The notes under the pieces are model-generated. The model saw nothing but the letters and a program-made list of their open reading frames with translations, had not been told where the DNA came from and searched no databases. Below, one piece after another: positions 579-30,162 of a stretch of DNA of 61,452 bases. The position numbers and the translations under genes were made by a program. Each line of letters starts with the position of its first letter. Position 1 is the first letter of the stretch. The DNA is from a phage, in sequence record PQ826432.1, one strand, 5' to 3'.

Positions 579-2684
579 TTAAACTTTCTCCCTCATCTGA
601 CCATCTGTTAATACCCGATTCCATACTCTAAGGTTTCGTATGTGTCCATATAATTTACTTGAATCGGAATGTCTTCCACCTATTTCTACTAGCGAGTCCG
701 AGTCCGTTCCTTTCCATGTAAAACCGTGTGAGGTCCCCCCCTTATTCCCATTAACAAATGAGGTGACATCTCCATTACCACTAAAAATAAAACCAAATAC
801 ATGTGAAGAAAATTGTTTTTCAAATGAATAACCCCTGGACAATATAGATGATCCATCCTCATTTACCACATACACATAAGGTGTAACGGAGGTTCTGTCA
901 AATTCCGCAACAAATGCTTTTCCTCTTACGTAGTATTGGTTATTATCCATTATCATTGGGTATGTATTATCTAATTGAAAGCTATCCCAGTTAACGCTCA
1001 CTTCAGCAAGGAATGAAATATTTGTCCCTGAGAAATTATTTCTTGCAGGTATAGTAACATAATCCACAGCCCTTGTTGCAGGAGTGCTTCCCGTAATAAT
1101 GAAGGAGGATGCACAAAAACCCTTTTCAAATTGCGGAGTACAAAATGATATTGTATCCCCAACTTGCAAGTTATCCCCGTTAGAGCCGCGAGCATAGTTA
1201 ATACTCCCAATCATGGCACCTGCAATATCAGAAAATTTACATGTTATTTCAACTTTCAGCCATCCATTATCTTCTTTGATGATTCTGTGTGTTACAGTTC
1301 CTCTAGCTTCTAGTGTATATGTCACCTCCCCTGTGTCGCATGACACTATAGATCTTGCAACAAGAATAAGGGCATTATCTTCCCCTAACGCATAGAATTG
1401 AGGAATTATGGAAATATTAGTTGCTTTCACTCTAATAGATAAGGTTGCGTATTCGTTCTGTTCACAATATATGTTGTTATTGTATTCGCAATAAAATAGT
1501 GATGGTGTATCACCTTGACCGTTTTCATTTGCGGTTGCGGTAGTATATGTAAATCCATATTTATCAACGCCGTAGGTAACGTCGCTACGATACTTATCAC
1601 TATTCAATGAAGATGGGTCATTGCTGTAAGTTATGTGGTTTGTCCTCTGCCCTTCAATTAAGAGTCCTTGCTTTTCAAATCTAGGTTCATCTATACCGGC
1701 AATACAAAACTCACCGTGCTTATTTATGTATGTTGCATTTGATGCACGCGAGAAGCTAACAACCTTATCAGAAGGCATTGTAATAACATCTTCACCAACT
1801 GTTATTTTCTTATAGCCTGGCGAGTAACCTGCAAGCATATCAAGCGAGTCATTAAATGGGATCCACACGTCAGGGAAAGGTTGAAGATCCGGAGCCCTGT
1901 TAGCTGCAACTTCCGCACGGTCTGCTTCTGCCTTTGCACGATCCGCGTCGTTTTTAGCTGCGGTTGCGCTTGTACCTGCGTTGCTTGCTTGTTTTCCAGC
2001 TTCGGTGGCGCTATTGCTTGCTTGTGTAGCAGACGCGGCAGCGGCGTCTTTTAGCGCGGTAGTTTCCGTTACTGCACTGTCCTTAATACCCTGTGTGTCT
2101 GCTTTTAACTGCTCAACGTCAGATTTTAGACCTTGAATTGTGGTCACAGCTTGTGATGCAGTATTAGCGGAACCAGCAGCGCCAGCCTGTGCTTGTTTAG
2201 CAGCGTCTTCGCTAGCTTTAGCATCATTTTTATAGACAAGTGCATCCGAAGCAGATTGAGCAGCCGAAGCCTTACTATTGCGAGCGTCCGTAGCATCTGC
2301 GTTTGCCGCCGCAGCAGAGCGACCAGCTTGCAAAGCATATTCTTCAGAGTTAGCTACAAGTTGTTGGACTTGTTTAATAACGTCCGGAGTTAATTCTTCT
2401 GGTGCCCAGTTAATTAAATAACCGTTCAGCGAACCTTCAGGGCTGTCGGAATAAATGACGATCTCACCAGCTTTATAAGGCTCAAGACCCTGCGGCCCAA
2501 TGATTACTTTGTAATGCCCCGCTTGTACAGTTACATTATAAGCACCTTCTCCATCTGTACGAAATACAGCCTCGCTACCATTAAGAACGGTAATTGTGTT
2601 CCCTTTTGCTAAAAGAGCAACGGTAGCGTTAACAATCGGTTTATTTAAACCATCTGTCAAAATACCATATAAACGAGTTGCCAT
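579..2684 (-). CDS. tail fibre protein (Ala-rich coiled-coil shaft, beta-rich C-terminal domain)
   Basis: ORF track 579..2714; start moved to ATG at 2684 (AGAGG SD; track start is TTG); composition typical of phage fibres. Confidence 0.65.
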   Translation of the reverse strand: MATRLYGILTDGLNKPIVNATVALLAKGNTITVLNGSEAVFRTDGEGAYNVTVQAGHYKVIIGPQGLEPYKAGEIVIYSDSPEGSLNGYLINWAPEELTPDVIKQVQQLVANSEEYALQAGRSAAAANADATDARNSKASAAQSASDALVYKNDAKASEDAAKQAQAGAAGSANTASQAVTTIQGLKSDVEQLKADTQGIKDSAVTETTALKDAAAASATQASNSATEAGKQASNAGTSATAAKNDADRAKAEADRAEVAANRAPDLQPFPDVWIPFNDSLDMLAGYSPGYKKITVGEDVITMPSDKVVSFSRASNATYINKHGEFCIAGIDEPRFEKQGLLIEGQRTNHITYSNDPSSLNSDKYRSDVTYGVDKYGFTYTTATANENGQGDTPSLFYCEYNNNIYCEQNEYATLSIRVKATNISIIPQFYALGEDNALILVARSIVSCDTGEVTYTLEARGTVTHRIIKEDNGWLKVEITCKFSDIAGAMIGSINYARGSNGDNLQVGDTISFCTPQFEKGFCASSFIITGSTPATRAVDYVTIPARNNFSGTNISFLAEVSVNWDSFQLDNTYPMIMDNNQYYVRGKAFVAEFDRTSVTPYVYVVNEDGSSILSRGYSFEKQFSSHVFGFIFSGNGDVTSFVNGNKGGTSHGFTWKGTDSDSLVEIGGRHSDSSKLYGHIRNLRVWNRVLTDGQMREKV

Positions 2685-3806: not shown

Positions 3807-6458
3807 TCACCAGCGTCCTACTATGACAACCCCCCCACCGGATAACGGAACGCGAATACCATTACTATCAATTGTAATACCTCCATTTCCGTTGAAACCA
3901 AATTGACCAGCGTTAGCAATGACCGTCCCTCTGACGGTAACGTTATTAAATACGCAATAACCGTCTTTTGTAATTGCCCAACCTTGATCGTTACCATTCC
4001 AGTTATTGGACTGAATAACATTACCAATCTTGGCGTTGGTGATTGAGCCATTCTCAATAAAGGCTTCTTGTAAGAAACTTTGACCGTTTTTAATAGCAAA
4101 AGCAAGCTGTGCTGCTCCCGCTACAGGATTATAAATAGCGAAGTTGTCCGCACTCACCATGAAGTAAGACTGGAATTGACCTCCGCTACCTTCTATACCT
4201 AACTGCATACCGGCGACATATTTATTACCGTTACTATCAATCTGAACTTTTTGTCCCCATTGGGCAGAGAGTTTACCATTAAGATCTGCTAATGCTTGGG
4301 ATTGTTGTTGAACTGTGACTACAACATCCCCGACACTTGTCTGAACAGAATCTATCTTGGAAGCTTGACCTTCTACCACTTTGGATAATTCTGTTACACC
4401 GTCATCAACCTTTTGCACAGTCTCCATGAGGTTTTTGAAAGTCTCAGTTTCTTGAAACTCTTTATCCATGATTTCTATAATCTGTGCGGTTTCTGCCCAT
4501 ACACGAGCTTCAACTTCCACAAACTCGGACGAGCCAAAGGCGTTGATAGTTCTTATATACCAGTAATAAGTGTGGTCATTGAGTAAGTTATTTTTCTGCC
4601 ATATAGTTCCCATACCTTCACGGGTAGCATCACGCTCAACAACATCTGTATTAGCAGATGCCAGTTTTGTTTCACCAGACGTCCAGAAATCAAATTGCGT
4701 GCTAACACTAGTCAGCTCTGCAATCTTTGGTATAAGAGTTAAAGAAAAATAACCGTTCTGTATCTCGACAGATGAAGGCGGCGGTGGAGCTTGAATATTA
4801 AACTCCAGATAAGCTTCCGGTGATATTGCACCGCTGTGAGATACAGCTTGAACGTGCGCAGTATACGCCCCACGAAGCAGCCCAGTAACACGAACGCTTT
4901 GGCCAGGGACTTGTGCGGTCCAAATAGTAACGCCTCCCTGTCGCACAGCTACGCGGTTATATGCGACTTGCCCCATGTTTGTCCAGGATAATACCCCCTG
5001 TACCACATCACTGATTTGCAATATCTGGTATTGAAGATTTTGAGGTTGAGCAACACCACCACTTGGCAAGTCTACAAGATCCGGTCTGTCCATAGGTTTA
5101 CCAATTGCATCGTCCCACATTTCCAGGAAATCTTGACGTAATGTAAGGTTAACACCACCTTTAGGGTTAAAAGACCATTTGGTAACGCGCATTTCAACAT
5201 TCTTCATGCCAATCTGCGTGATGGTAACTTTTACATACATTCCTGGACGGAACTTATAACCCTTCATGTTACAAGGGATTTCAATTGTACGTCCAACACG
5301 TTTACGACGTAGAATAATATTAGACAAACGTTGTGCCTGATATTCACTAGTTACAAAACGAAAATCCATGTCCTGAGTTATTTCCCCGCCATCCTTTTCC
5401 ACCCATTCCTTAACCACAACTGGAGGGAAGTCTGCTTCAACGTAGTTCTGCTTCGGATCAATAAATGTCCCTGTGATGGTGTTTGTGCGCTCCTTATAAG
5501 AAGTCTCTGGAACAATCTTAATATCCCCAGCAATACAACTTTCGTCCAGCGTCATTGTTGCTGGACCGTAATATGCGCCAACCAGAAGACCGTGTTTACC
5601 CGCCACATACGTTAGCTCGCCGCCACAAGCTTGCAACATAGCATCCAGAATTTTGGAGGGGGCTTCATCTACTTCAAATTCACCGTTAATTTTATAACGG
5701 CGCTCTGTAGAACCATCAGCGTTATTGACGTATTCATCACAGATGTTAGCAGCTTCTTTGAACTGGTCCCAGTTAATATCTTCATCTTTTCGCTTTAAAT
5801 ACGTGCGGAAGTAATCAAGTATTACTAAAGCTGCATTATCGCTAAATATGGTATAGCCAGAACGAGGATCATATACACGGCGTCCTCTTTTAAGAAGCTT
5901 AATGTTTGGCAAACCAGAAGGGAATTTTTCTGCATTAAATTTAAAGCTAATGCGAAGCCATGCAATCCCTTTCCCAATCATATCCTCTTTCCAGGAAGGG
6001 CAATTGCTTAACATGAATGGATCTACAGTCTGACGGTCGTTATGAAATTCCCAAGTAACATACTGTTCGAAAGTCTGTACAAGATCATCCCCAAGCCAAA
6101 TATCACCAATCCCCTCCAATGGATGTGAAGCTACAACAAGCGCCATATGCAGGAGTTCGTCTTCGTCTTGATCACCAGGCTGCTCCTCGGCAAACGTCAT
6201 AACACCGGAAGCAACCGTTGTCCCGTATACTACTGTTCGGGACGCTGCGGCTGCTCGTAAAACCTGCTTACGCTCTTGTTGGCCTTTATAAGCATTAAAG
6301 TTCATATTAGGTGTCTTAGTTAAAAGAGCACCTGCCGCAGTTGCAGCCATACCAATAGCCAAAGCTACGCCCGTAGCAATCCACCCCGCCGCAGCGGCAG
6401 CGGAAGCACCTAAAGCTATTGCTGCTCCAATTATTGCTGGTGGCATTAGACCCTCCAA
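3807..6458 (-). CDS. tail tip / host specificity protein, lambda J-like
   Basis: 883 aa; segments YYWYIRTINAFGSSEFVEVEA and FNIQAPPPPSSVEIQNGYF recall lambda gpJ by memory; position after minor tail genes; true start uncertain. Confidence 0.75.
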   Translation of the reverse strand: MEGLMPPAIIGAAIALGASAAAAAGWIATGVALAIGMAATAAGALLTKTPNMNFNAYKGQQERKQVLRAAAASRTVVYGTTVASGVMTFAEEQPGDQDEDELLHMALVVASHPLEGIGDIWLGDDLVQTFEQYVTWEFHNDRQTVDPFMLSNCPSWKEDMIGKGIAWLRISFKFNAEKFPSGLPNIKLLKRGRRVYDPRSGYTIFSDNAALVILDYFRTYLKRKDEDINWDQFKEAANICDEYVNNADGSTERRYKINGEFEVDEAPSKILDAMLQACGGELTYVAGKHGLLVGAYYGPATMTLDESCIAGDIKIVPETSYKERTNTITGTFIDPKQNYVEADFPPVVVKEWVEKDGGEITQDMDFRFVTSEYQAQRLSNIILRRKRVGRTIEIPCNMKGYKFRPGMYVKVTITQIGMKNVEMRVTKWSFNPKGGVNLTLRQDFLEMWDDAIGKPMDRPDLVDLPSGGVAQPQNLQYQILQISDVVQGVLSWTNMGQVAYNRVAVRQGGVTIWTAQVPGQSVRVTGLLRGAYTAHVQAVSHSGAISPEAYLEFNIQAPPPPSSVEIQNGYFSLTLIPKIAELTSVSTQFDFWTSGETKLASANTDVVERDATREGMGTIWQKNNLLNDHTYYWYIRTINAFGSSEFVEVEARVWAETAQIIEIMDKEFQETETFKNLMETVQKVDDGVTELSKVVEGQASKIDSVQTSVGDVVVTVQQQSQALADLNGKLSAQWGQKVQIDSNGNKYVAGMQLGIEGSGGQFQSYFMVSADNFAIYNPVAGAAQLAFAIKNGQSFLQEAFIENGSITNAKIGNVIQSNNWNGNDQGWAITKDGYCVFNNVTVRGTVIANAGQFGFNGNGGITIDSNGIRVPLSGGGVVIVGRW

Positions 6459-6880
6459 ATATCCGTGATTTTGATCTTATTAAGCGGGAATGTTTCCACA
6501 CCGTTCGGGCCCATAGCCCATACATATCCCGTCCATAATATGCCAGCAGTTAAGCCCAATGCTCCCTCAAATGTAACCACATCTCCTCTTTGTGCAAAGT
6601 TCTTATCAACACGCTCACTCAGGTAAGCATCCAGCAAGGTTGGAAGATAAGCTGTTCCGACTTTTTCAATTGAAAATCGCTTGCTTCCAAGCTCTGTGCT
6701 ATATTTACCTGCTATCTGATTATAAATATTTGTGTTGTATTGTGCATCAACACATTTAGCGGCAAACGTACAGCAATCGTTTTCGCCCCAAGAAAAAGGA
6801 GTCGATGCTAACTCCTTTACTGTGGTTAATAAACGTGTCTGCCATCCTGGCATTTTACTCATACGTGAATCCTGGCGCAT
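6446..6880 (-). CDS. tail assembly protein, K-like (possible NlpC/P60-type Cys)
   Basis: ORF track 6446..7030; start moved to ATG 6880 with GGGGGAG SD; position between L-like and J-like. Confidence 0.4.
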   Translation of the reverse strand: MRQDSRMSKMPGWQTRLLTTVKELASTPFSWGENDCCTFAAKCVDAQYNTNIYNQIAGKYSTELGSKRFSIEKVGTAYLPTLLDAYLSERVDKNFAQRGDVVTFEGALGLTAGILWTGYVWAMGPNGVETFPLNKIKITDIWRV

Positions 6881-7439
6881 CTTTTTTACTCCCCCAAAAG
6901 ATTGAACGTTCAGCCATTTGCGCAACATATCTAAAGAACCGATCACCCGGATGTAAACGTTGCTGACTTTCATCCGTATAGCGATCCGGTAAACCCTGCG
7001 ACCAACGCTCAAAGACATTGGCAATAACATAACTCAACGCATTCTGTTGACCTGCTTGTAAAGCAGTGTCTGTGATAAACCCTTCAAATAATACGTTTGC
7101 ACCAGTGACAACGCCTTGATCGTTCATAACCGCAAGATAGCAAATAACATTGCGGCCAATAACTTCTTCGTTTAACGTTTCTCCTACAAGACTCATATCC
7201 AGACCGCTAAGTGCCATGGACATAGTGCTTGAGCTTGTGCTGTTTTCTTCTGTAACCGATCCAACATCCCCTAGAGTGCCTACACCAAGAAAAGTCTGAC
7301 CATTGATAATAACAGTTCCTGTTCCAGTATGAACGCGGGTTATACCGGAAGGGAAGTCTATTTCCGCTGCCAACACTAGCGCAACGTTTGGTTGCTCCAT
7401 TGCGCTAAGAAGGCTGTCGCTAAACGGACTGAATAACAT
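6855..7439 (-). CDS. minor tail protein (L-like position)
   Basis: ORF track; gene order in tail module. Confidence 0.45.
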   Translation of the reverse strand: MLFSPFSDSLLSAMEQPNVALVLAAEIDFPSGITRVHTGTGTVIINGQTFLGVGTLGDVGSVTEENSTSSSTMSMALSGLDMSLVGETLNEEVIGRNVICYLAVMNDQGVVTGANVLFEGFITDTALQAGQQNALSYVIANVFERWSQGLPDRYTDESQQRLHPGDRFFRYVAQMAERSIFWGSKKDAPGFTYE

Positions 7440-8023
7440 TAAAATGCCTCCGAGAATTTTAAAGTAAAGGAGTTATTAAAAGCAGGCTGACGTTTAACTC
7501 CATTTGTGTTTTCGGCTAAACGGAAAGATCCTTGTGGTTTCTGAGTTTCAATCTTTGCACCGTTTGGAGGGATGCTTCTTAACATCGGGGCAATATTTAA
7601 AATCACGTTACCAGAAGAATCACTCCAAGCATCTTCTGTTATTAATTTTAATTCATTGTTCACTGCGATGTAGTCCCCTTCCCATAATACCTTACGGTCA
7701 GGAGTCCAGCCCTTAGTTGACAAAGTTGTCCCAGTGTTATTTGCCCCATTGACCACAGGTGATCCCATTGGAGGCCGACCCCAGCGACCAAAATCCTGAA
7801 GCATAATGCGACCAGCTTTGCCATCAAGTTTAGCTAACGTTGATTCAAGCTTTCTGGATTGCCAGTCATTTAAGTTGCTAAATGTCAGTGTCGCTTCCCA
7901 TCGTGATCCAGGATAGGACACAGTTTGGGAAGCCCCATTGAAGGGGCTTGTAAATTCTACAGCGTTTGAGACTAGATACCATTCCATTTCCGATGGTCTA
8001 AGCTCTTCGGGCCAAGTGAGCAT
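7439..8023 (-). CDS. minor tail protein (M-like position)
   Basis: ORF track; directly downstream of tape measure. Confidence 0.45.
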   Translation of the reverse strand: MLTWPEELRPSEMEWYLVSNAVEFTSPFNGASQTVSYPGSRWEATLTFSNLNDWQSRKLESTLAKLDGKAGRIMLQDFGRWGRPPMGSPVVNGANNTGTTLSTKGWTPDRKVLWEGDYIAVNNELKLITEDAWSDSSGNVILNIAPMLRSIPPNGAKIETQKPQGSFRLAENTNGVKRQPAFNNSFTLKFSEAF

Positions 8024-8026
8024 ATA

Positions 8027-11000
8027 TTACCCCATTGCAGTTCTACGAATTGTTCCTCGGGATGCAAAGTCAGTAAGAACTTTATTATATCCCTGCTCCG
8101 CACCATCACGAGCTGCTTGCTGCATGGCTTGCGTGAGCGCAGCATCGCCATTTCCTTGCACCGTGATATACTGAACAATGCTAACACCACCGGACATATT
8201 CACGCCACCTTGTTGTGAAGCTTGACTATCCAGGAAGCGATTTAACTTGTCATTAGACGGAGCATTGAGTACACGTTCCCCTTTATCCAGCAACCATGTA
8301 CCTTCGCGCGGAACATTATCAATACCGTCGTGTGCCATGCCGGCAATTGCTAAGCCACCCACAGTAGCAGCCGACGCATAACCCATAGCTTTTACTATAC
8401 CAGCCATAGCTGCGCCCATTGTAGCACCGCCTTGCTGTGTACCCCACGCAAGCGCCGCAGATGCCGCTGTTTCCGTGTTAGAAAGAATTGAGGGAATTTG
8501 CATTGCTTTCTGTGCTGCAAACATTGCTTTATAAATAAAGTTCTGTTTACTAACACCTTCTTCCAGACCTGACAATATAACACCCAACGATTCTTGAGAA
8601 AAGGATATCATCCTGTTCATAAGAACTTTATCCAGGTTTTCCCTTTCCATACTTGCTTTCTTCAGGACTTGTGTTTTAGCATCTTCGTAAAGCTGATAGT
8701 AAGCTAAATCATCCGCTCGCTGTTTTGCATTAAGCTCTGCAATCTTTGTATTTTGCTCGTACGCAATTTTTTCATAGTCTGTCATACCTTCATCTAACAG
8801 ACCCTGAGCAAACTTACGGTTCTTCTTACGCTCGTCCAGTTTCTTTTGAGCTTCTTCTGCATCGTAGATTGCAGCAGCAAGTCTAACAACTTCCTCTTTT
8901 TCCGCAGCCGTTGCAGACGAATTGAGCTTATTAAGTGCCACCGCTTGCGCTTTAGCTTTAGCGTTTTCCTTAACCCCTGTGGTTACTTCGTTAAGCTTGT
9001 TTCGTAAATCGTCAATAACCTTAGCGTTTTGTTGATCTGCCTTAATAGCGTCTTTTGTAGCTTTAGTCCGGTTTCTCTCTGCTTCTTCAAGATCGTAGTT
9101 TTTGCCAAGAGCTTGGGCCAAATCTTGAGCGTATTTAACAAGCTCTTTAGCGGATTCGCTTGTTGCCTCTGAGCTAACGTCCTGACCCATAGCCACTTTG
9201 CGAATAAGACTTCCGTATGTATCCGCATCCTTGCCCAGCGTCTGGTACAGTCCACTAAGGATTGCAGCTTGGCGAGCATTACCAGCGCCCTTAACCGTGT
9301 TAACATCAATCTCACGGTTAACGTCCCCGAGTTGACCTTTAAAGCGATCCAATACTTTTTCGTCAATTAACGGACCGGATTTAATGCTAAGGACAGCCTT
9401 CATATCCGCAGCAAGCTGACGTGCTAGAGGGATTATTTTCTCTATAGCGGGGCTTGTCATTTCAAGCACATTGTTATATCGACGTTGTGCGTCTTCCGCG
9501 CGTTCAGCAGCTAGCTTGACGTTATCCGTAGCAATCTGTAAGTTCTTTTCCGCACTAGCAGTATCTCGACCGGATGCAGCTCGACGTTTTAATTGTGCTT
9601 CGTAGAACTTCTGCGTTTCCGTTGCAGATTTTAGAGCGGTCTGTTCCCGCTTCATTTGCTCTTCAAGCTCAGGAAGGATTGCTCTAGCTTTGACCGCGTT
9701 AGCTGCCAACTGAGCTTCTGTCATTTGCATCAGTTTTTCGCGTACACTGTCAACACTATCTGCAAACTGATTGTTTTCCGCACGACCCGCTTCCAGCGAC
9801 GCTTTATAGGAGTAAATTGCACCCGCTGCCAGCATTGCTACACCAACAGGACCGCCAATCAACCCCATAGCACCGCGTAGCACGCTCATTGCTGTAGCGG
9901 CTCGGCTTGCGGCTGGTACGGTTGCATTGAGCGCAGCATTGAGCGCTTGCCGCGCTTGTACGTCCGCCATAATTGCCGCAGAATGCGCACGGGTAGCGTT
10001 AATAAGAGCAAGACGTGCGCCTGCTTCCGCTGCCGTACCTTTAGCAACTGCTAATGCACCGCGTGCCACCTGCAACGATGCAAGCGAAGCAGCACGATCC
10101 GCAGCCGCTTTCTGTGCGGTAACGCCAATAGAGCTTTGCATCACCGCAGTAGTTGCCGCCGTTTGTGCAGCTTCCATCCGTGATGCTTTTGCAGCAGCTA
10201 TAGACGCTTTAGTCTTGGCCAACATTGCCGTGATGATACGGGCGGTAATCACTGTGGCTAAAGCTGAACCAACCGTTACAACCGTTCCTAAGTTTTCGGA
10301 TAATGCAACAAACGTCTGTCCCAATGCAGCAACAGCACCTTGAGTCTTTTGGGATTCGCCCATAAACTTAGTCAGGTTGTTTGTTGCAACTGTCCATTGC
10401 TGGTTGAACGTTGGCATAGTGCGGCTAAATTCTTTATCAATTGTATCCGCAGCACCAGACAACGATTTGATAACCACATCGGCTGTTAACTTGCCGCTGT
10501 ACGCCAGCTCACGCAATTGTCCAATAGTAACGCCTAACGAATCGGACATGATTTGAGTTAAGCGCGGCGCTTGTTCTGCAACAGAGCGGAATTCATCCCC
10601 ACGCAGAACACCGGATGCCATTGCTTGCGAAAACTGAATAAGGGCAGCACTTGCTTCATGGGATGTTGCACCGGAAACAATCATTGCTTTGTTAATTGTT
10701 TCCGTGATACGTCCAAGCTCCATACCAGTCATACCAGTATTCTTCATCGCACGCTGGAGACGGGAGTACAGAGTTGCAGTTGCTTCCAAGCTTGTACGTG
10801 ACCGCTGGGCAATATCAAACACGCGTTGCTGCGCATCCGCAACGGTTTCATTACCCGTACGAGCCAGTTCAAGTTTGTTGGTGAGGATAGTCCAGGAGTC
10901 CGATAGCGAAATAACACGGCTAATGGTGTCGACGCTAATCATTCCTACAATTGCAGCATCTAAACGACTTGTGACAGTTGCAAGTTCGTTAGATGTGTTA

Positions 11001-11143
11001 GACAATGTTTTATAGCTGGAGGTAACACGTTGAGCAGACCGCTCCGCTGTGTCACCTGTACGCGCTAAGTTCCGCAACATAGAGTCCGCGGTACTAATCC
11101 CTCTCGCGTCAACTCTGATTACTAGCGAAGCGGTTTCGGCCAT
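8027..11143 (-). CDS. tail tape measure protein
   Basis: 1038 aa, Ala-rich alpha-helical, follows chaperone pair; GGAG SD before ATG. Confidence 0.85.
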   Translation of the reverse strand: MAETASLVIRVDARGISTADSMLRNLARTGDTAERSAQRVTSSYKTLSNTSNELATVTSRLDAAIVGMISVDTISRVISLSDSWTILTNKLELARTGNETVADAQQRVFDIAQRSRTSLEATATLYSRLQRAMKNTGMTGMELGRITETINKAMIVSGATSHEASAALIQFSQAMASGVLRGDEFRSVAEQAPRLTQIMSDSLGVTIGQLRELAYSGKLTADVVIKSLSGAADTIDKEFSRTMPTFNQQWTVATNNLTKFMGESQKTQGAVAALGQTFVALSENLGTVVTVGSALATVITARIITAMLAKTKASIAAAKASRMEAAQTAATTAVMQSSIGVTAQKAAADRAASLASLQVARGALAVAKGTAAEAGARLALINATRAHSAAIMADVQARQALNAALNATVPAASRAATAMSVLRGAMGLIGGPVGVAMLAAGAIYSYKASLEAGRAENNQFADSVDSVREKLMQMTEAQLAANAVKARAILPELEEQMKREQTALKSATETQKFYEAQLKRRAASGRDTASAEKNLQIATDNVKLAAERAEDAQRRYNNVLEMTSPAIEKIIPLARQLAADMKAVLSIKSGPLIDEKVLDRFKGQLGDVNREIDVNTVKGAGNARQAAILSGLYQTLGKDADTYGSLIRKVAMGQDVSSEATSESAKELVKYAQDLAQALGKNYDLEEAERNRTKATKDAIKADQQNAKVIDDLRNKLNEVTTGVKENAKAKAQAVALNKLNSSATAAEKEEVVRLAAAIYDAEEAQKKLDERKKNRKFAQGLLDEGMTDYEKIAYEQNTKIAELNAKQRADDLAYYQLYEDAKTQVLKKASMERENLDKVLMNRMISFSQESLGVILSGLEEGVSKQNFIYKAMFAAQKAMQIPSILSNTETAASAALAWGTQQGGATMGAAMAGIVKAMGYASAATVGGLAIAGMAHDGIDNVPREGTWLLDKGERVLNAPSNDKLNRFLDSQASQQGGVNMSGGVSIVQYITVQGNGDAALTQAMQQAARDGAEQGYNKVLTDFASRGTIRRTAMG

Positions 11144-11550
11144 TATCTTCTCCTTTTTCTTCTACCTTTATTTTGATTTTGCATTTGACTTTCCATGAGT
11201 TTAGCATTTTGTTCAGCTTCTGACACGCGCTTTTCAAGCCATAGCTGCCGCAGTATTTCGCATTCGTACGGTTGAAGATGTAAGCCCATTGTCACTTGAT
11301 AGCTGTGCAATTCTGTATAACTAAAATCCCCTCCAGTGTAAATATCATCAAATAAAGTAGATAGATATTCGAAGCAAAGCGGTATTTCCTTTTCCCGATA
11401 TTCTTTAAGCTTAGGTGGCGTCTTACCAGACTGTTCCTCAACCTTTTGCAGTTGCGATAATAAAGAAGATCCCCCGCCGGGGACTTTACTATTTAGTTCC
11501 CATTGGAGGATCTTCTTATCAATTAACTGTCTGCGCGCTTTTAGAAAAAA
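11143..11550 (-). CDS. tail assembly chaperone extension reached by -1 programmed frameshift (G-T type fusion)
   Basis: slippery T_TTT_TTC at 11544..11550 (minus strand) two codons before stop of 11541..11948; -1 frame open ~134 codons with no own start; stop overlaps tape measure ATG. Confidence 0.6.
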   Translation of the reverse strand, partial: FFLKARRQLIDKKILQWELNSKVPGGGSSLLSQLQKVEEQSGKTPPKLKEYREKEIPLCFEYLSTLFDDIYTGGDFSYTELHSYQVTMGLHLQPYECEILRQLWLEKRVSEAEQNAKLMESQMQNQNKGRRKRRR

Positions 11551-11948
11551 TTACTATCTTTAGCGGCAAACACGTTAAGGTCTTCTCGAACAGTTGGGTT
11601 CTCCGTTAAGAACTCAAACACGTTGTCAACGGTTGGAGGCTCATCAAAGGTCCAACCTGCTACAAGATTACACAGTGAACGGGTAAGGATGTCTTCCTTC
11701 ATAGCATCCGTTACTTCACCGTCTTTACCCTGCATAAGCGCCAACAGTTGACGTTGTGCTTTCAATTCTGCGTCACGATACTCTGTGCAGTAACGGCTAC
11801 GAATGTAGAGTTTTTCGCCAGTGTCGCCTACACCAGGAATAACCACATTCATAGGCTTAGTGTTTGCCGGATCATTTGCCCGGCTCACAGTTTTAAAATC
11901 ACGGAAGCTTTTAGCTACTGCAACTTTGGCTTTTTTGGTGTCGGTCAT
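11541..11948 (-). CDS. tail assembly chaperone (G-like)
   Basis: 135-aa ORF between major tail protein and tape measure; carries slippery site at 3' end. Confidence 0.6.
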   Translation of the reverse strand: MTDTKKAKVAVAKSFRDFKTVSRANDPANTKPMNVVIPGVGDTGEKLYIRSRYCTEYRDAELKAQRQLLALMQGKDGEVTDAMKEDILTRSLCNLVAGWTFDEPPTVDNVFEFLTENPTVREDLNVFAAKDSNFF

Positions 11949-11957
11949 TTCTTATCC

Positions 11958-12881
11958 TTATGCTCCCGCTAAAACGCGGGTAATTTTGATGGAACTTGCG
12001 GTTGTTGGGTCCAGCAATCCGCGGTAGCCCATATTAAGCATGATATCGCCTTCACCGTCAATAGGACGCGGAGCCTCTGTGAATTTCACGCGAGGGATTT
12101 CCACAGTGTATTTTTGTTGCGGATTGCTTGGGTCAATCAGATCAAACTTGATTGAAGTTTCCACTTCATCCAGATACTTCTTACGCAGTTTGTTATCCAG
12201 GAAGTAAACGTTAGCTGTACCAGTTACAGCACGGCGACCAGCAGACGGTTCAATGGAGAACTTCGAGCCAACAACGAAGCGCGGGGAGATATCGTTTTCA
12301 ACGGTAAGACCGATTTCCGTAATAACGCTAATCTCCTGACCGCCTTCCAGCAAGCGGCCGGAGAAACCATCCATCGGTGAAGAAGTTGTACGAGGTTTAA
12401 TGGAAGCACCAGCAGGAAGTGATTCAGCAATTTCCATGGAACGACCAACAATACCAAACTCTACTGTGGTCATGTTTTCAGCTGACAATGAGAAAGTCAT
12501 GCTGTTAACTTCACAACCGCGATAGATTGTGTATTTACCTGATGGCAGATCTGCGTTATAGTCTACAAAAGTAAATGACTGGCGAACAATACCACCTTTA
12601 AGGACGTTCTCCTGCCATTCACCGCGCAGCGCTGCCGCAATGAGGTCGTCAAACGTACCGAAGGACATTTCGCCCGTTACCGTACCTTCAACGCTTCGAG
12701 CGCCAAGACGAAAGTCTGCGGTTTCTGCGTCATCACGCAGTTCTTCAGACTCCAGCGTCGCAATGTTAATATCCAGACCGGAACTCGTTACACGAAACGG
12801 GGTAAACTTCGCGCTTGCTGGAGTTGTGTTGCTCACATCTTCTTTGACGTAATAACACGAATAACGTGAACCTGTAGCCAT
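11958..12881 (-). CDS. major tail (tube) protein
   Basis: 307 aa, position upstream of chaperone and tape measure. Confidence 0.7.
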   Translation of the reverse strand: MATGSRYSCYYVKEDVSNTTPASAKFTPFRVTSSGLDINIATLESEELRDDAETADFRLGARSVEGTVTGEMSFGTFDDLIAAALRGEWQENVLKGGIVRQSFTFVDYNADLPSGKYTIYRGCEVNSMTFSLSAENMTTVEFGIVGRSMEIAESLPAGASIKPRTTSSPMDGFSGRLLEGGQEISVITEIGLTVENDISPRFVVGSKFSIEPSAGRRAVTGTANVYFLDNKLRKKYLDEVETSIKFDLIDPSNPQQKYTVEIPRVKFTEAPRPIDGEGDIMLNMGYRGLLDPTTASSIKITRVLAGA

Positions 12882-12895
12882 ATTTAGATCCTCTC

Positions 12896-13345
12896 TTACC
12901 TCGGCTCACGAGCCGACCAATAGATTGTAATAAAGTTAACGTCCCAGTTGTCTTCAACCCCGCCTCTGGTAAAATCATTCAGCGAAGTTTGTCCACCCTG
13001 CGAAAAGTCTAAGCTGACAATTCGTATCGTGTGGTCATCCGGGCACGGGATACGCAAGCCCAGTTTAAACTTTTTCCGAATGGAATCCAAGATTTGATTC
13101 TGTTTAGACGTTCCAGTGTTTAACGGACTGTACACTGTAACTTGATAGAATCCTGGAATTTCATTCAGACCGTTGTCACCTAACGTTGCCGCGTATGTAG
13201 ATGCAGGTGCATTGATTGCCTTTAACCACATCTGATTCGCTTTAGGTGTAAACTTCTTGTTCTTCCACGCTATACCTATATCCGGTCCAACGGCTTCGCG
13301 TAGCATCTTATTAAATGCGTCATTGATAAAATCGTATCCCAGCAT
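12896..13345 (-). CDS. tail terminator / tail completion protein (by position)
   Basis: ORF track; gene order. Confidence 0.35.
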   Translation of the reverse strand: MLGYDFINDAFNKMLREAVGPDIGIAWKNKKFTPKANQMWLKAINAPASTYAATLGDNGLNEIPGFYQVTVYSPLNTGTSKQNQILDSIRKKFKLGLRIPCPDDHTIRIVSLDFSQGGQTSLNDFTRGGVEDNWDVNFITIYWSAREPR

Positions 13346-13752
13346 TATAGTTTTCCTTCTACAATAGCTTGGCGTATCAACATTGGTAGCTTCGCTACGT
13401 TAATACGCACCATGCCATTTGGCGCTTGCTGCGACCAACCAAGATATTCAAGTTTCGGAGCATACGGGGTTAAGTTGCTAAAGTAGAAAGTCCAGTCTTT
13501 ATCATCTGGCAACTGTCTTACGATAACCCTAGCTTCCGCTTTAGCTAATTCCCCAGTAGGATCGAGGCGGATAGTTTCCGTCGCATATGGTGCACCAATG
13601 GATGAACGCCAACCGCCTTTTGTACGTCCGGTCTTAACAGGAGTATCCTGAATTACATTCTCCGTGAACTTGACAACAACCTTTTTGGCTTGCTCCCCAG
13701 TCTGGACAAGCACCTTTTGACTTGCACGCCGTATATCCGCCCCGAATCCCAT
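13345..13752 (-). CDS. head-tail joining protein (HK97 gp10-like by position)
   Basis: ORF track; gene order. Confidence 0.35.
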   Translation of the reverse strand: MGFGADIRRASQKVLVQTGEQAKKVVVKFTENVIQDTPVKTGRTKGGWRSSIGAPYATETIRLDPTGELAKAEARVIVRQLPDDKDWTFYFSNLTPYAPKLEYLGWSQQAPNGMVRINVAKLPMLIRQAIVEGKL

Positions 13753-29991: not shown

Positions 29992-29998
29992 ACTACTT

Positions 29999-30024
29999 CC
30001 GGACCAGTCCTCCTACTGGTCCGG
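29999..30024 (+). terminator. stem-loop after 29665..29991
   Basis: 10-bp stem CCGGACCAGT/ACTGGTCCGG with 6-nt loop; weak U-run. Confidence 0.45.
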
Positions 30025-30162
30025 TTAACCGCGCAATAAAGTCCTCCTCCAATATCCCGCGATTAAGCGCATTATAGCTTGATATACCTTCCGATCACAA
30101 TAGTTCAATAAATTTCCCTCAAAAGCACTTGACTTCTCACTTTTGATCTGCATCCGTTCAGG

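What the first reader, a model, noticed from the sequence alone, without database searches (positions are those of the whole stretch)
11143..11550. -1 programmed frameshift in the tail assembly chaperone
Seen: the slippery heptamer T_TTT_TTC sits on the minus strand at 11544..11550, two codons before the stop of 11541..11948. The -1 frame then stays open for about 134 codons with no start of its own and stops in TAATG overlapping the tape measure ATG. Established: siphovirus chaperone genes between major tail and tape measure use this G/G-T arrangement.
Basis: partly seen in the sequence, partly recalled or inferred. Interest (0 to 1): 0.45.

Follow-up and report, generated by a model that had tools for sequence, protein, structure and literature searches.

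The report
Tail chaperone G/G-T −1 frameshift site
This is the ordinary, already annotated programmed −1 ribosomal frameshift that lets a Seurat-like E. coli phage make a short and a long tail-assembly chaperone from one gene; the only fresh detail is a selected RNA hairpin a little downstream whose role is unknown.

Summary
On the minus strand, gene G (11948..11541, 135 aa) ends AAT TTT TTC TAA. The heptamer T_TTT_TTC is at 11550..11544. The −1 frame is closed by TAA directly before the heptamer, then runs 135 codons to a TAATG overlap with the tape measure ATG at 11143.

- gene order tube / G / T / tape measure;
- family hits (PHROG 569 spans G and T as one protein; Pfam Phage_TAC_18 on T);
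- third-position-biased substitutions through the 80 startless −1 codons;
- the same in-phase heptamer in every relative examined, down to 21–27% identity.

In relatives, G homology ends and T homology begins exactly at the two Phe codons. No fusion protein has been demonstrated.

It is already known: GenBank KM236243 (phage Seurat, 97.5% identical here) annotates this join as ribosomal slippage. The two other relatives' records I opened carry only a 48-aa fragment.

Extra finding: a −29 kcal/mol hairpin (11521..11458) starts 22 nt after the heptamer, too far for a canonical stimulator. Protein-preserving codon permutations show excess structure there in about 10 of 13 lineages, but the base pairs are not homologous. 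Its function is open.

The parts
11958..12881 (-). Tail tube (major tail) gene, 307 aa, immediately upstream of G (context)
   Evidence: Pfam PF18906 Phage_tube_2, E 7.7e-44; phrog_290
11955..11959 (-). Shine-Dalgarno-like AAGGA, 6 nt before the G start codon
   Evidence: Read directly from the sequence
11541..11948 (-). Gene G: tail assembly (tape measure) chaperone, 135 aa, 15.2 kDa, product of standard decoding (stop included)
   Evidence: phrog_569 profile positions 11-126 (E 2.8e-26); phrog_313 'Tail assembly chaperone' (E 3.2e-11). 7 of 11 relatives hit Pfam PF08748 Phage_TAC_4 at E<0.01
11551..11553 (-). TAA in the -1 frame that closes that frame immediately 5' of the heptamer
   Evidence: the -1 frame opens exactly at 11550
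11544..11550 (-). Slippery heptamer T_TTT_TTC (P site UUU, A site UUC; both tRNA-Phe can re-pair on UUU UUU)
   Evidence: in phase, and conserved in phase in all relatives examined
11541..11543 (-). 0-frame stop TAA directly 3' of the heptamer
11143..11550 (-). -1 frame 'T' segment: 135 codons from the first T of the heptamer plus stop TAA 11145..11143. The G-T fusion would be 268 aa, 30.9 kDa, with a basic C-terminus KGRRKRRR
   Evidence: phrog_569 positions 129-256 (E 4.4e-47); Pfam PF23812 Phage_TAC_18 at 38.8 bits against a cut-off of 27. Variable sites by -1-frame codon position 1/2/3 = 30/19/71, and 15/6/44 in the startless part. Size and pI
11458..11521 (-). Strong RNA hairpin starting 22 nt 3' of the heptamer; role unproven
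   Evidence: -29 kcal/mol, z -4.8. Rank 50 of 20,461 windows on the minus strand. z -4.6/-5.2 against protein-preserving codon permutations. The inner part, 11484..11469, scores as terminator-like
11150..11155 (-). Shine-Dalgarno AAGGAG of the tape measure gene, inside the 3' end of T
   Evidence: Read directly from the sequence
8027..11143 (-). Tape measure protein gene, 1038 aa; its ATG overlaps the T stop (TAATG)
   Evidence: Pfam PF20155 TMP_3, E 9.9e-60; phrog_339, E 1.4e-177

Best explanation
The window is a Seuratvirus (Queuovirinae) genome. Most ribosomes translating the tail assembly chaperone gene G decode ...AAU UUU UUC and terminate at the adjacent UAA, giving the 135-aa G protein. 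A minority slip one base back while tRNA-Phe occupies both the P site (UUU) and the A site (UUC) of U_UUU_UUC. Both tRNAs re-pair on UUU UUU. Translation then continues with CUA AAA GCG... for 133 more codons, giving a 268-aa G-T fusion that ends at the TAATG overlap with the tape measure gene. By analogy with lambda gpG/gpGT, the G part would coat the tape measure protein and the rare T part would recruit tube subunits, with neither protein ending up in the virion. Shown here: the sequence architecture, family membership, purifying selection on the -1 frame, and conservation of the slip site. Inferred: that slippage occurs on the ribosome, its efficiency, and the function in assembly. A selected downstream RNA structure exists, but it starts too far away (22 nt) to be a canonical stimulator, so it is not part of the committed mechanism.
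For: (1) Architecture: searches show the frames overlap for only 10 nt, the heptamer plus the stop. (2) Gene order is tube / G / T / tape measure, with strong family hits. (3) PHROG 569, a 256-position profile, matches G at positions 11-126 and T at 129-256, so its members are contiguous G-T proteins. (4) T hits Pfam Phage_TAC_18 above the gathering cut-off, as do 11 of 11 relatives. (5) Among 9 Seuratvirus sequences, variable sites fall mainly on third positions of the -1 frame (30/19/71), including the 77 codons after the G stop that precede any start codon (15/6/44). Indels are multiples of three. (6) The heptamer xxT TTT TTC (TTA in the EC151 lineage) is in the same phase in the window and 13 GenBank relatives down to 21-27% protein identity (9g, EC151, Kpn2-P2, Vid5, PSTCR4, K21lambda1, PaMx11, Kokobel2, DoCa5), and in the IMG/VR contigs examined. 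This holds even where the G frame runs 19-55 nt further. (7) G-family conservation stops at FF, and the 0-frame tails beyond it are unconserved. T-family conservation starts at FF. (8) U_UUC is the second most shift-prone A-site motif in E. coli, and the best motifs allow cognate A-site re-pairing (PMC4066793).
Against: There is no direct evidence for the fusion protein in any of these phages. The Seurat, EC151 and Vid5 papers do not discuss the frameshift. No SD-like sequence lies upstream of the heptamer. No conserved structure sits at the canonical 5-9 nt spacing. RNAalifold finds no consensus pairs across lineages. In several relatives a TTG or ATG lies 12-21 codons into T, so some independent initiation there cannot be excluded; this window has no such codon. 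Computation alone cannot separate ribosomal slippage from RNA polymerase slippage on the T6 run.
Confidence: 0.9

Rival explanations
1. RNA polymerase slippage rather than ribosomal slippage. A fraction of transcripts gain one extra U in the U6 run, and standard translation of those mRNAs gives G-T.
For: The site is a homopolymeric T6 run, T7 in 9g-like relatives. Inserting one U would put T in frame. Transcriptional slippage is a documented alternative at homopolymer runs (PMC5009743).
Against: From my own knowledge, bacterial RNA polymerase slippage is usually appreciable only on runs of about 8-9 or more A/T, and this run is 6. What is conserved is the full in-phase heptamer including its last base (C, or A in one lineage), flanked in Seuratvirus by stops in both frames. 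That fits tandem tRNA re-pairing. Phase conservation among homologues is only weak evidence, however.
Confidence: 0.05
2. No recoding. The T region is translated on its own from an internal start. Candidates are TTG 11310 or ATG 11289, the 48-aa ORF that some records annotate as a second chaperone.
For: The BASEL and CSP1C records annotate exactly that 48-aa ORF. Relatives annotate 100-117-aa T ORFs starting at TTG or ATG 12-21 codons after the heptamer. Gene callers produce T-only ORFs of 93-143 aa.
Against: In this window the first possible start is 80 codons into the open frame. Those 80 codons still show third-position-biased substitution (15/6/44) and carry part of the Pfam TAC_18 match (residues 37-106) and family conservation from residue 1. 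I see no SD before ATG 11289. The -1 frame opens exactly at the heptamer.
Confidence: 0.03
3. Artefact or decay. Either an indel in the T run of the assembly splits what is really one continuous 268-aa gene, or T is a decaying remnant.
For: Homopolymer runs are prone to sequencing errors.
Against: All 35 independently sequenced close relatives match this 71-nt region over at least 80% of the query, and the five rows shown are equal-length matches. All 9 Seuratvirus loci analysed show G of 135-136 aa plus T in the -1 frame. All tblastn hits covering both halves come in two frame pieces, across genera with T6 or T7 runs. No ~270-aa in-frame fusion appears in the 1.84-billion-protein representative library. 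T is under purifying selection.
Confidence: 0.01

Closest known systems
Escherichia phage Seurat CPT_Seurat13/14 'tape measure chaperone' (GenBank KM236243.1, joined CDS 9835..10640, note 'ribosomal slippage (10236)')
   Same: Same genus. The region is 97.5% identical in nucleotides and the proteins 99.6% identical. It has the identical heptamer, the same 135-aa G and 268-aa G-T, and the same TAATG overlap with the tape measure gene.
   Different: Nothing of substance differs. The Seurat annotation is itself a prediction, and the genome announcement does not discuss it.
Bacteriophage lambda gpG / gpGT (Levin, Hendrix & Casjens 1993; Xu, Hendrix & Duda 2004, 2013, 2014; reviewed in PMC5009743)
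   Same: Two overlapping ORFs lie between the major tail and tape measure genes. A low-level -1 shift near the 3' end of G yields G and G-T. Here the assumed roles are the lambda ones: G binds the tape measure and T binds the tail tube protein.
   Different: From my own knowledge, the lambda slippery site is G_GGA_AAG, read by tRNA-Lys. Here it is U_UUU_UUC, read by tRNA-Phe. I found no detectable sequence similarity to lambda G or T, and the Pfam families differ (TAC_4-like and TAC_18). In this phage the 0-frame stop directly abuts the heptamer and the frame overlap is only 10 nt.
Phage P2 E / E+E' tail chaperone frameshift (Christie et al. 2002; cited in PMC5009743 as 2- to 3-fold more efficient than lambda)
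   Same: It is a -1 frameshift in the tail chaperone gene upstream of the tape measure gene. From my own memory, not checked here, it occurs on a run of six T (T_TTT_TTG).
   Different: P2 is a myovirus with unrelated proteins. The last base of its heptamer is G rather than C.
IS1 insA-insB' and E. coli dnaX -1 frameshift cassettes
   Same: Both use a homopolymer-type X_XXY_YYZ heptamer decoded by E. coli ribosomes. From my own knowledge, IS1, like this site, has the 0-frame stop close to the slip site and needs no adjacent structure.
   Different: dnaX relies on an upstream SD-like element and a stem-loop 6 nt downstream. Here there is no upstream SD, and the strong hairpin begins 22 nt downstream.

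Membership tests
Lambda-type G/G-T tail assembly chaperone with programmed -1 frameshift (Xu, Hendrix & Duda 2004) | A pair of ORFs located between the major tail (tube) gene and the tape measure gene | tested here: met
   Tube PF18906 at 12881..11958; G at 11948..11541; T at 11550..11143; TMP PF20155 at 11143..8027
Lambda-type G/G-T tail assembly chaperone with programmed -1 frameshift | The second ORF is in the -1 frame relative to the first, overlaps its 3' end, and lacks its own initiation signal | tested here: met
   The -1 frame opens at 11550. The first TTG is 80 codons in and the first ATG 87 codons in. The +1 frame closes after 7 codons
Lambda-type G/G-T tail assembly chaperone with programmed -1 frameshift | A slippery heptamer X_XXY_YYZ in 0-frame phase inside the overlap | tested here: met
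   T_TTT_TTC at 11550..11544 is the whole of the overlap apart from the stop. U_UUC is a proven shift-prone A-site motif in E. coli (PMC4066793)
Lambda-type G/G-T tail assembly chaperone with programmed -1 frameshift | The arrangement and slip site are conserved among relatives despite low protein similarity | tested here: met
   The same in-phase heptamer occurs in Seuratvirus, Nonagvirus, EC151-like, Kpn2-P2-like, Vidquintavirus, Craquatrovirus, K21lambda1, Kokobel2 and Bradleyvirinae phages at 21-79% identity
Lambda-type G/G-T tail assembly chaperone with programmed -1 frameshift | Both G and a minor G-T fusion are made (about 30:1 in lambda), are needed for tail assembly, and are absent from virions | not testable with these tools
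   Needs protein-level experiments. No paper on these phages in the searched library reports it
Pfam PF23812 Phage_TAC_18 (T segment) | Score above the curated gathering threshold | tested here: met
   38.8 bits against a cut-off of 27, E 1e-09, residues 37-106 of the -1 frame product. 11 of 11 relatives match, best E 1.5e-22
Pfam PF08748 Phage_TAC_4 (G segment) | Score above the curated gathering threshold | tested here: inconclusive
   The window's G scores 14.3 bits against a cut-off of 21.1 (E 0.048). 7 of 11 relatives match at E<0.01 (best 1.5e-4). phrog_313 'Tail assembly chaperone' gives E 3.2e-11. The single-sequence AlphaFold model was too poor (pLDDT 43) for a fold test
Canonical bacterial -1 PRF cassette (dnaX / IS3 type) | A stimulatory stem-loop or pseudoknot 5-9 nt downstream of the heptamer, and/or an SD-like element 10-14 nt upstream | tested here: not met
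   I see no SD-like sequence upstream. The strong hairpin starts 22 nt downstream. The closing helix that the MFE predicts at a 5-7 nt spacing has no comparative support. This is not a defining feature of the chaperone class

The most novel reading that the evidence does not exclude
The RNA structure 20-35 nt downstream of the slip site may be a functional element of this chaperone cassette that acts at a non-canonical distance. In the window it is the hairpin at 11521..11458. Codon choice maintains it in most lineages of this chaperone family, while the actual base pairs keep being re-invented. It could tune the G:G-T ratio. Alternatively it could act as an mRNA boundary, through a partial terminator, a processing site or a stability element, that keeps tube and G expression high and T and tape measure expression low.
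Probability: 0.25. Interest if true: 0.45.

Novelty: already known. Interest (0 to 1): 0.15.

Why it matters
The practical value is mostly annotation hygiene. Of the three close relatives' records I opened, only Seurat's carries the joined CDS. The other two, GottfriedDienst and CSP1C, list a meaningless 48-aa fragment. The six more distant records from 9g to PSTCR4 (9g, EC151, Kpn2-P2, Vid5, PSTCR4, STP-SP5) list separate ORFs of about 100-117 aa. A correct 268-aa G-T product matters for proteomics, for engineering these phages, and for studies of which phage proteins bacterial immune sensors recognise.

The comparative data add two small points:
- U_UUU_UUC is a very deeply conserved slip site in this chaperone family, across several phage families and hosts.
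- RNA structure downstream of it is under selection, yet it is not placed where frameshift stimulators normally sit.

Tried and rejected
- **The search for homologous proteins with the 268-aa fusion:** it returned no hit at all, so no alignment was available for structure prediction.
- **AlphaFold2 on G alone:** mean pLDDT was 43, so no fold search was attempted.
- **PDB sequence searches with G and T:** nothing meaningful came back.
- **Rfam:** no family was found at the site or anywhere in the window.
- **The search for related loci with the 11-sequence T alignment:** A narrower alignment worked.
- **RNAalifold on a codon-anchored 12-sequence alignment:** it gave zero consensus pairs. I therefore dropped the idea of one homologous stimulatory hairpin shared by all lineages.
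- **Pair-by-pair comparison within lineages:** it showed a few compensatory changes but also disruptions. Synonymous-site suppression in the stems appeared only within Seuratvirus (p 0.013 and 0.06).
- **The 5-7 nt-spaced long-range closing helix in the MFE fold of the window:** not accepted, because it is not supported in relatives.
- **Hit P0002 in the representative search (2316 aa, 26 stretches):** a low-complexity repeat artefact.
- **+1 frameshifting:** rejected, because that frame closes after 7 codons.

Full report
**What is in the sequence**

On the minus strand, an ATG at 11948, preceded by AAGGA, opens a 135-codon ORF. It ends ...GAT AGT AAT TTT TTC TAA, with the stop at 11543..11541. 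The run T_TTT_TTC occupies 11550..11544 and is in X_XXY_YYZ phase relative to that ORF.

The −1 frame is full of stops throughout gene G and has TAA at 11553..11551, directly before the heptamer. From 11550 it stays open for 135 codons, ending at TAA 11145..11143. That stop overlaps the ATG at 11143 of a 1038-codon ORF as TAATG, and an AAGGAG lies 6 nt upstream of that ATG. The two frames can therefore be joined only within 10 nt: the heptamer plus the stop.

The first ATG/GTG/TTG in the −1 frame is TTG at 11310 (codon 81), and the first ATG is at 11289 (codon 88). The +1 frame closes after 7 codons. TTTTTTC occurs only 7 times on this strand of the 61-kb window.

**What the genes are**

| Gene | Coordinates (minus strand) | Evidence |
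|---|---|---|
| Tail tube protein | 12881..11958 | PF18906, E 8e-44 |
| G | 11948..11541 | phrog_569 positions 11–126; phrog_313 'Tail assembly chaperone', E 3e-11 |
| T (−1 frame) | 11550..11143 | phrog_569 positions 129–256, E 4e-47; Pfam Phage_TAC_18, 38.8 bits against a cut-off of 27 |
| Tape measure protein | 11143..8027 | PF20155, E 1e-59; phrog_339, E 1e-177 |

Two connector genes lie further upstream: a tail terminator (13345..12896) and a tail completion/Neck1 protein (13752..13345). phrog_569 is a 256-position profile, so one profile running through both halves means its members are contiguous G-T proteins. Among relatives, 11 of 11 T segments hit TAC_18, and 7 of 11 G proteins hit Pfam Phage_TAC_4 at E<0.01. 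The window's own G is below threshold for TAC_4.

**Where the window comes from, and what is already annotated**

The region is 95–99% identical to 33 of the 35 matching *Seuratvirus* (Queuovirinae) records in the phage collection, including RCIP0359, CSP1, Seurat, CAjan and the BASEL phages. GenBank KM236243 (phage Seurat) annotates CPT_Seurat13 as 'tape measure chaperone, ribosomal slippage (10236)'. It also annotates CPT_Seurat14 as a two-piece joined CDS, 9835..10640. That is exactly the G and G-T proposed here.

The GottfriedDienst and CSP1C records instead list only a 48-aa ATG ORF, equivalent to 11289..11143. The STP-SP5, 9g, EC151, Kpn2-P2, Vid5 and PSTCR4 records list separate ORFs of about 100–117 aa. 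The Seurat, EC151 and Vid5 papers do not discuss the frameshift.

**Comparative tests**

1. *Coding signal in the −1 frame.* In an alignment of nine Seuratvirus sequences, variable sites fall on codon positions 1/2/3 as follows:

   | Region | Position 1 | Position 2 | Position 3 |
   |---|---|---|---|
   | G, 0 frame | 34 | 19 | 97 |
   | T, −1 frame | 30 | 19 | 71 |
   | Startless part of T | 15 | 6 | 44 |

   The alignment includes STP-SP5 (78% protein identity) and an IMG/VR contig (91%). Indels are multiples of three.

2. *Conservation of the heptamer.* I extracted the G/T junction from relatives found by tblastn and from IMG/VR.
   - The 0-frame reading is xxT TTT TTC in every case (TTA in the EC151 lineage).
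   - The relatives are Seuratvirus, 9g, Kpn2-P2-like, Vid5, PSTCR4, K21lambda1, Kokobel2, PaMx11 and a *Xanthomonas* Bradleyvirinae phage. Protein identity falls to 21–27%.
   - The heptamer is kept even where the G frame continues 19–55 nt beyond it.

3. *Where homology stops and starts.* The G alignment is conserved up to the two Phe residues. The 0-frame tails after them are unconserved, S/T/K-rich and 0–18 aa long. The T alignment is conserved from the same two Phe codons onwards.

4. *No in-frame fusions and no indels.*
   - All tblastn hits that cover both halves come in two frame pieces.
   - All 35 close records match the 71 nt around the site over at least 80% of the query, and the five rows shown are equal-length matches.
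   - The exhaustive representative library holds only T-only ORFs of 93–143 aa plus one repeat artefact. It holds no ~270-aa in-frame fusion.

These results exclude a sequencing indel. They also make independent initiation of T untenable in this phage.

**Mechanism**

The best-supported mechanism is tandem −1 slippage of two tRNA-Phe on U_UUU_UUC. It gives ...DSNFF|LKARRQ... and a 268-aa, 30.9-kDa G-T protein with a basic C-terminal half (pI 9.2), alongside the acidic 15.2-kDa G.

In E. coli, U_UUC ranks second among A-site motifs (A_AAG >> U_UUC > U_UUU ...). [quoted passage not shown] From my own knowledge (Weiss et al. 1987, 'shifty stops'), the UAA immediately 3′ may add a slow-to-decode codon. 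It cannot be essential, however, because many relatives lack an adjacent stop.

RNA polymerase slippage on T6 cannot be excluded computationally, but I consider it unlikely. The functional roles are by analogy with lambda (PMC5009743): G coats the tape measure protein, and T recruits the tube protein.

**A downstream RNA structure**

Folding the RNA after the heptamer gives a long hairpin at 11521..11458.
- Its energy is −29 kcal/mol, with z −4.8 against dinucleotide shuffles.
- It is the best 60-nt window in the surrounding 2.5 kb.
- It ranks 50th of 20,461 70-nt windows on the whole minus strand.
- It starts 22 nt after the heptamer, well beyond the 5–9 nt spacing of known stimulators.
- 0-frame ribosomes terminate before they reach it.

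Other lineages each have their own strong hairpin starting 20–36 nt after the heptamer start: 9g, Kpn2-P2-like, EC151-like and Vid5. The arms lie in different codon columns, and RNAalifold on the codon-anchored alignment finds no consensus pairs. Pairwise comparisons show some compensatory changes but also disruptions.

Permuting synonymous codons within each T gene keeps the protein and codon usage unchanged. Under that test the real +18..+105 segment is much more stable than the permutations in about 10 of 13 lineages (z −2.3 to −5.2). Control segments further into T centre on zero, with a few exceptions.

So RNA structure just downstream of the G stop is selected, but its pairs are re-invented rather than inherited. 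The inner part of the window's hairpin, GTCCCCGGCGGGGGAT followed by CTTCTTTATT, also matches a simple terminator pattern. I do not know what this element does. The options are a modulator of the shift, an mRNA boundary between highly expressed tube and G and weakly expressed tape measure, or a translational pause. Experiments are needed to decide.

**Verdict**

It is a textbook case. The same join is already annotated in a congeneric GenBank record, so the novelty is 'already known' and the interest is low. Two things have some residual value: most relatives' records miss the join, and the downstream structure signal is modest but reproducible.

Noticed in passing
window 11458..11521 (-); relatives L005, L006, L007, L008, L026, L030 at +20..+95 from their heptamers: There is a strong hairpin 22 nt downstream of the slip site (-29 kcal/mol). 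RNA structure recurs at the same place in about 10 of 13 lineages, supported by protein-preserving codon permutations (z -2.3 to -5.2). The base pairs are not column-homologous, and RNAalifold finds no consensus.
   Followed up: partly
window 11469..11484 (-): The inner stem GTCCCCGGCGGGGGAT followed by CTTCTTTATT matches a simple intrinsic-terminator pattern inside the T coding region, about 60 nt after the G stop. The U-rich tail is not present in 9g-like relatives.
   Followed up: partly
L006 (EC151) 957..966 and IMG/VR loci L028-L031 at 701..710: The EC151 lineage reads CTT TTT TTA AAG. This creates two overlapping in-phase heptamers, T_TTT_TTA and T_TTA_AAG, and the second carries the A_AAG motif that is most efficient in E. 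coli. This lineage may therefore shift on a different codon pair.
   Followed up: no
L006 and L008, codon 19 of the T frame (idx 54-56 after the heptamer start): In EC151 and Vid5 an in-frame ATG sits in the loop region of the downstream hairpin. It is TTG in 9g and CTA in this window. Those records use such codons as the start of a separate T gene. Independent initiation there is not excluded for those phages.
   Followed up: no
GenBank records MZ501071.1 and PQ202980.1 (loci L002, L003), equivalent to window 11143..11289: The second 'tape measure chaperone' in these records is a 48-aa ORF starting at the first ATG of the -1 frame. This is a gene-caller fragment of the unannotated G-T frameshift.
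   Followed up: yes
window 10041..10110 (-): This is the most stable 70-nt window on the whole minus strand (-37.4 kcal/mol, z -3.4). It is a long imperfect hairpin inside the tape measure gene.
   Followed up: partly
window 29997..30066 (-): Two adjacent hairpins (-35.9 kcal/mol, z -5.6). The second is a perfect 10-bp stem, CCGGACCAGU...ACUGGUCCGG. Their context and function were not examined.
   Followed up: no
loci L006, L007, L011, L012 at about +405..+432 from the heptamer (start of the tape measure gene): In several relatives the most stable 60-nt window of the locus lies at the very start of the tape measure gene, just after the T stop.
   Followed up: no
Homologous-protein query and representative library: The 5.8-billion-protein word-indexed database returned no hit for the 268-aa fusion, although close relatives are in GenBank. 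The exhaustive library returned only 13 representatives for T. One of them (P0002, 2316 aa) is a low-complexity repeat artefact.
   Followed up: partly
window 6446..8023 (-): Three ORFs of exactly 194 aa are listed downstream of the tape measure gene: 8023..7439, 7439..6855 and 7030..6446. The last two overlap by 176 nt in different frames. This probably reflects a later true start for the third ORF, but I did not check it.
   Followed up: no
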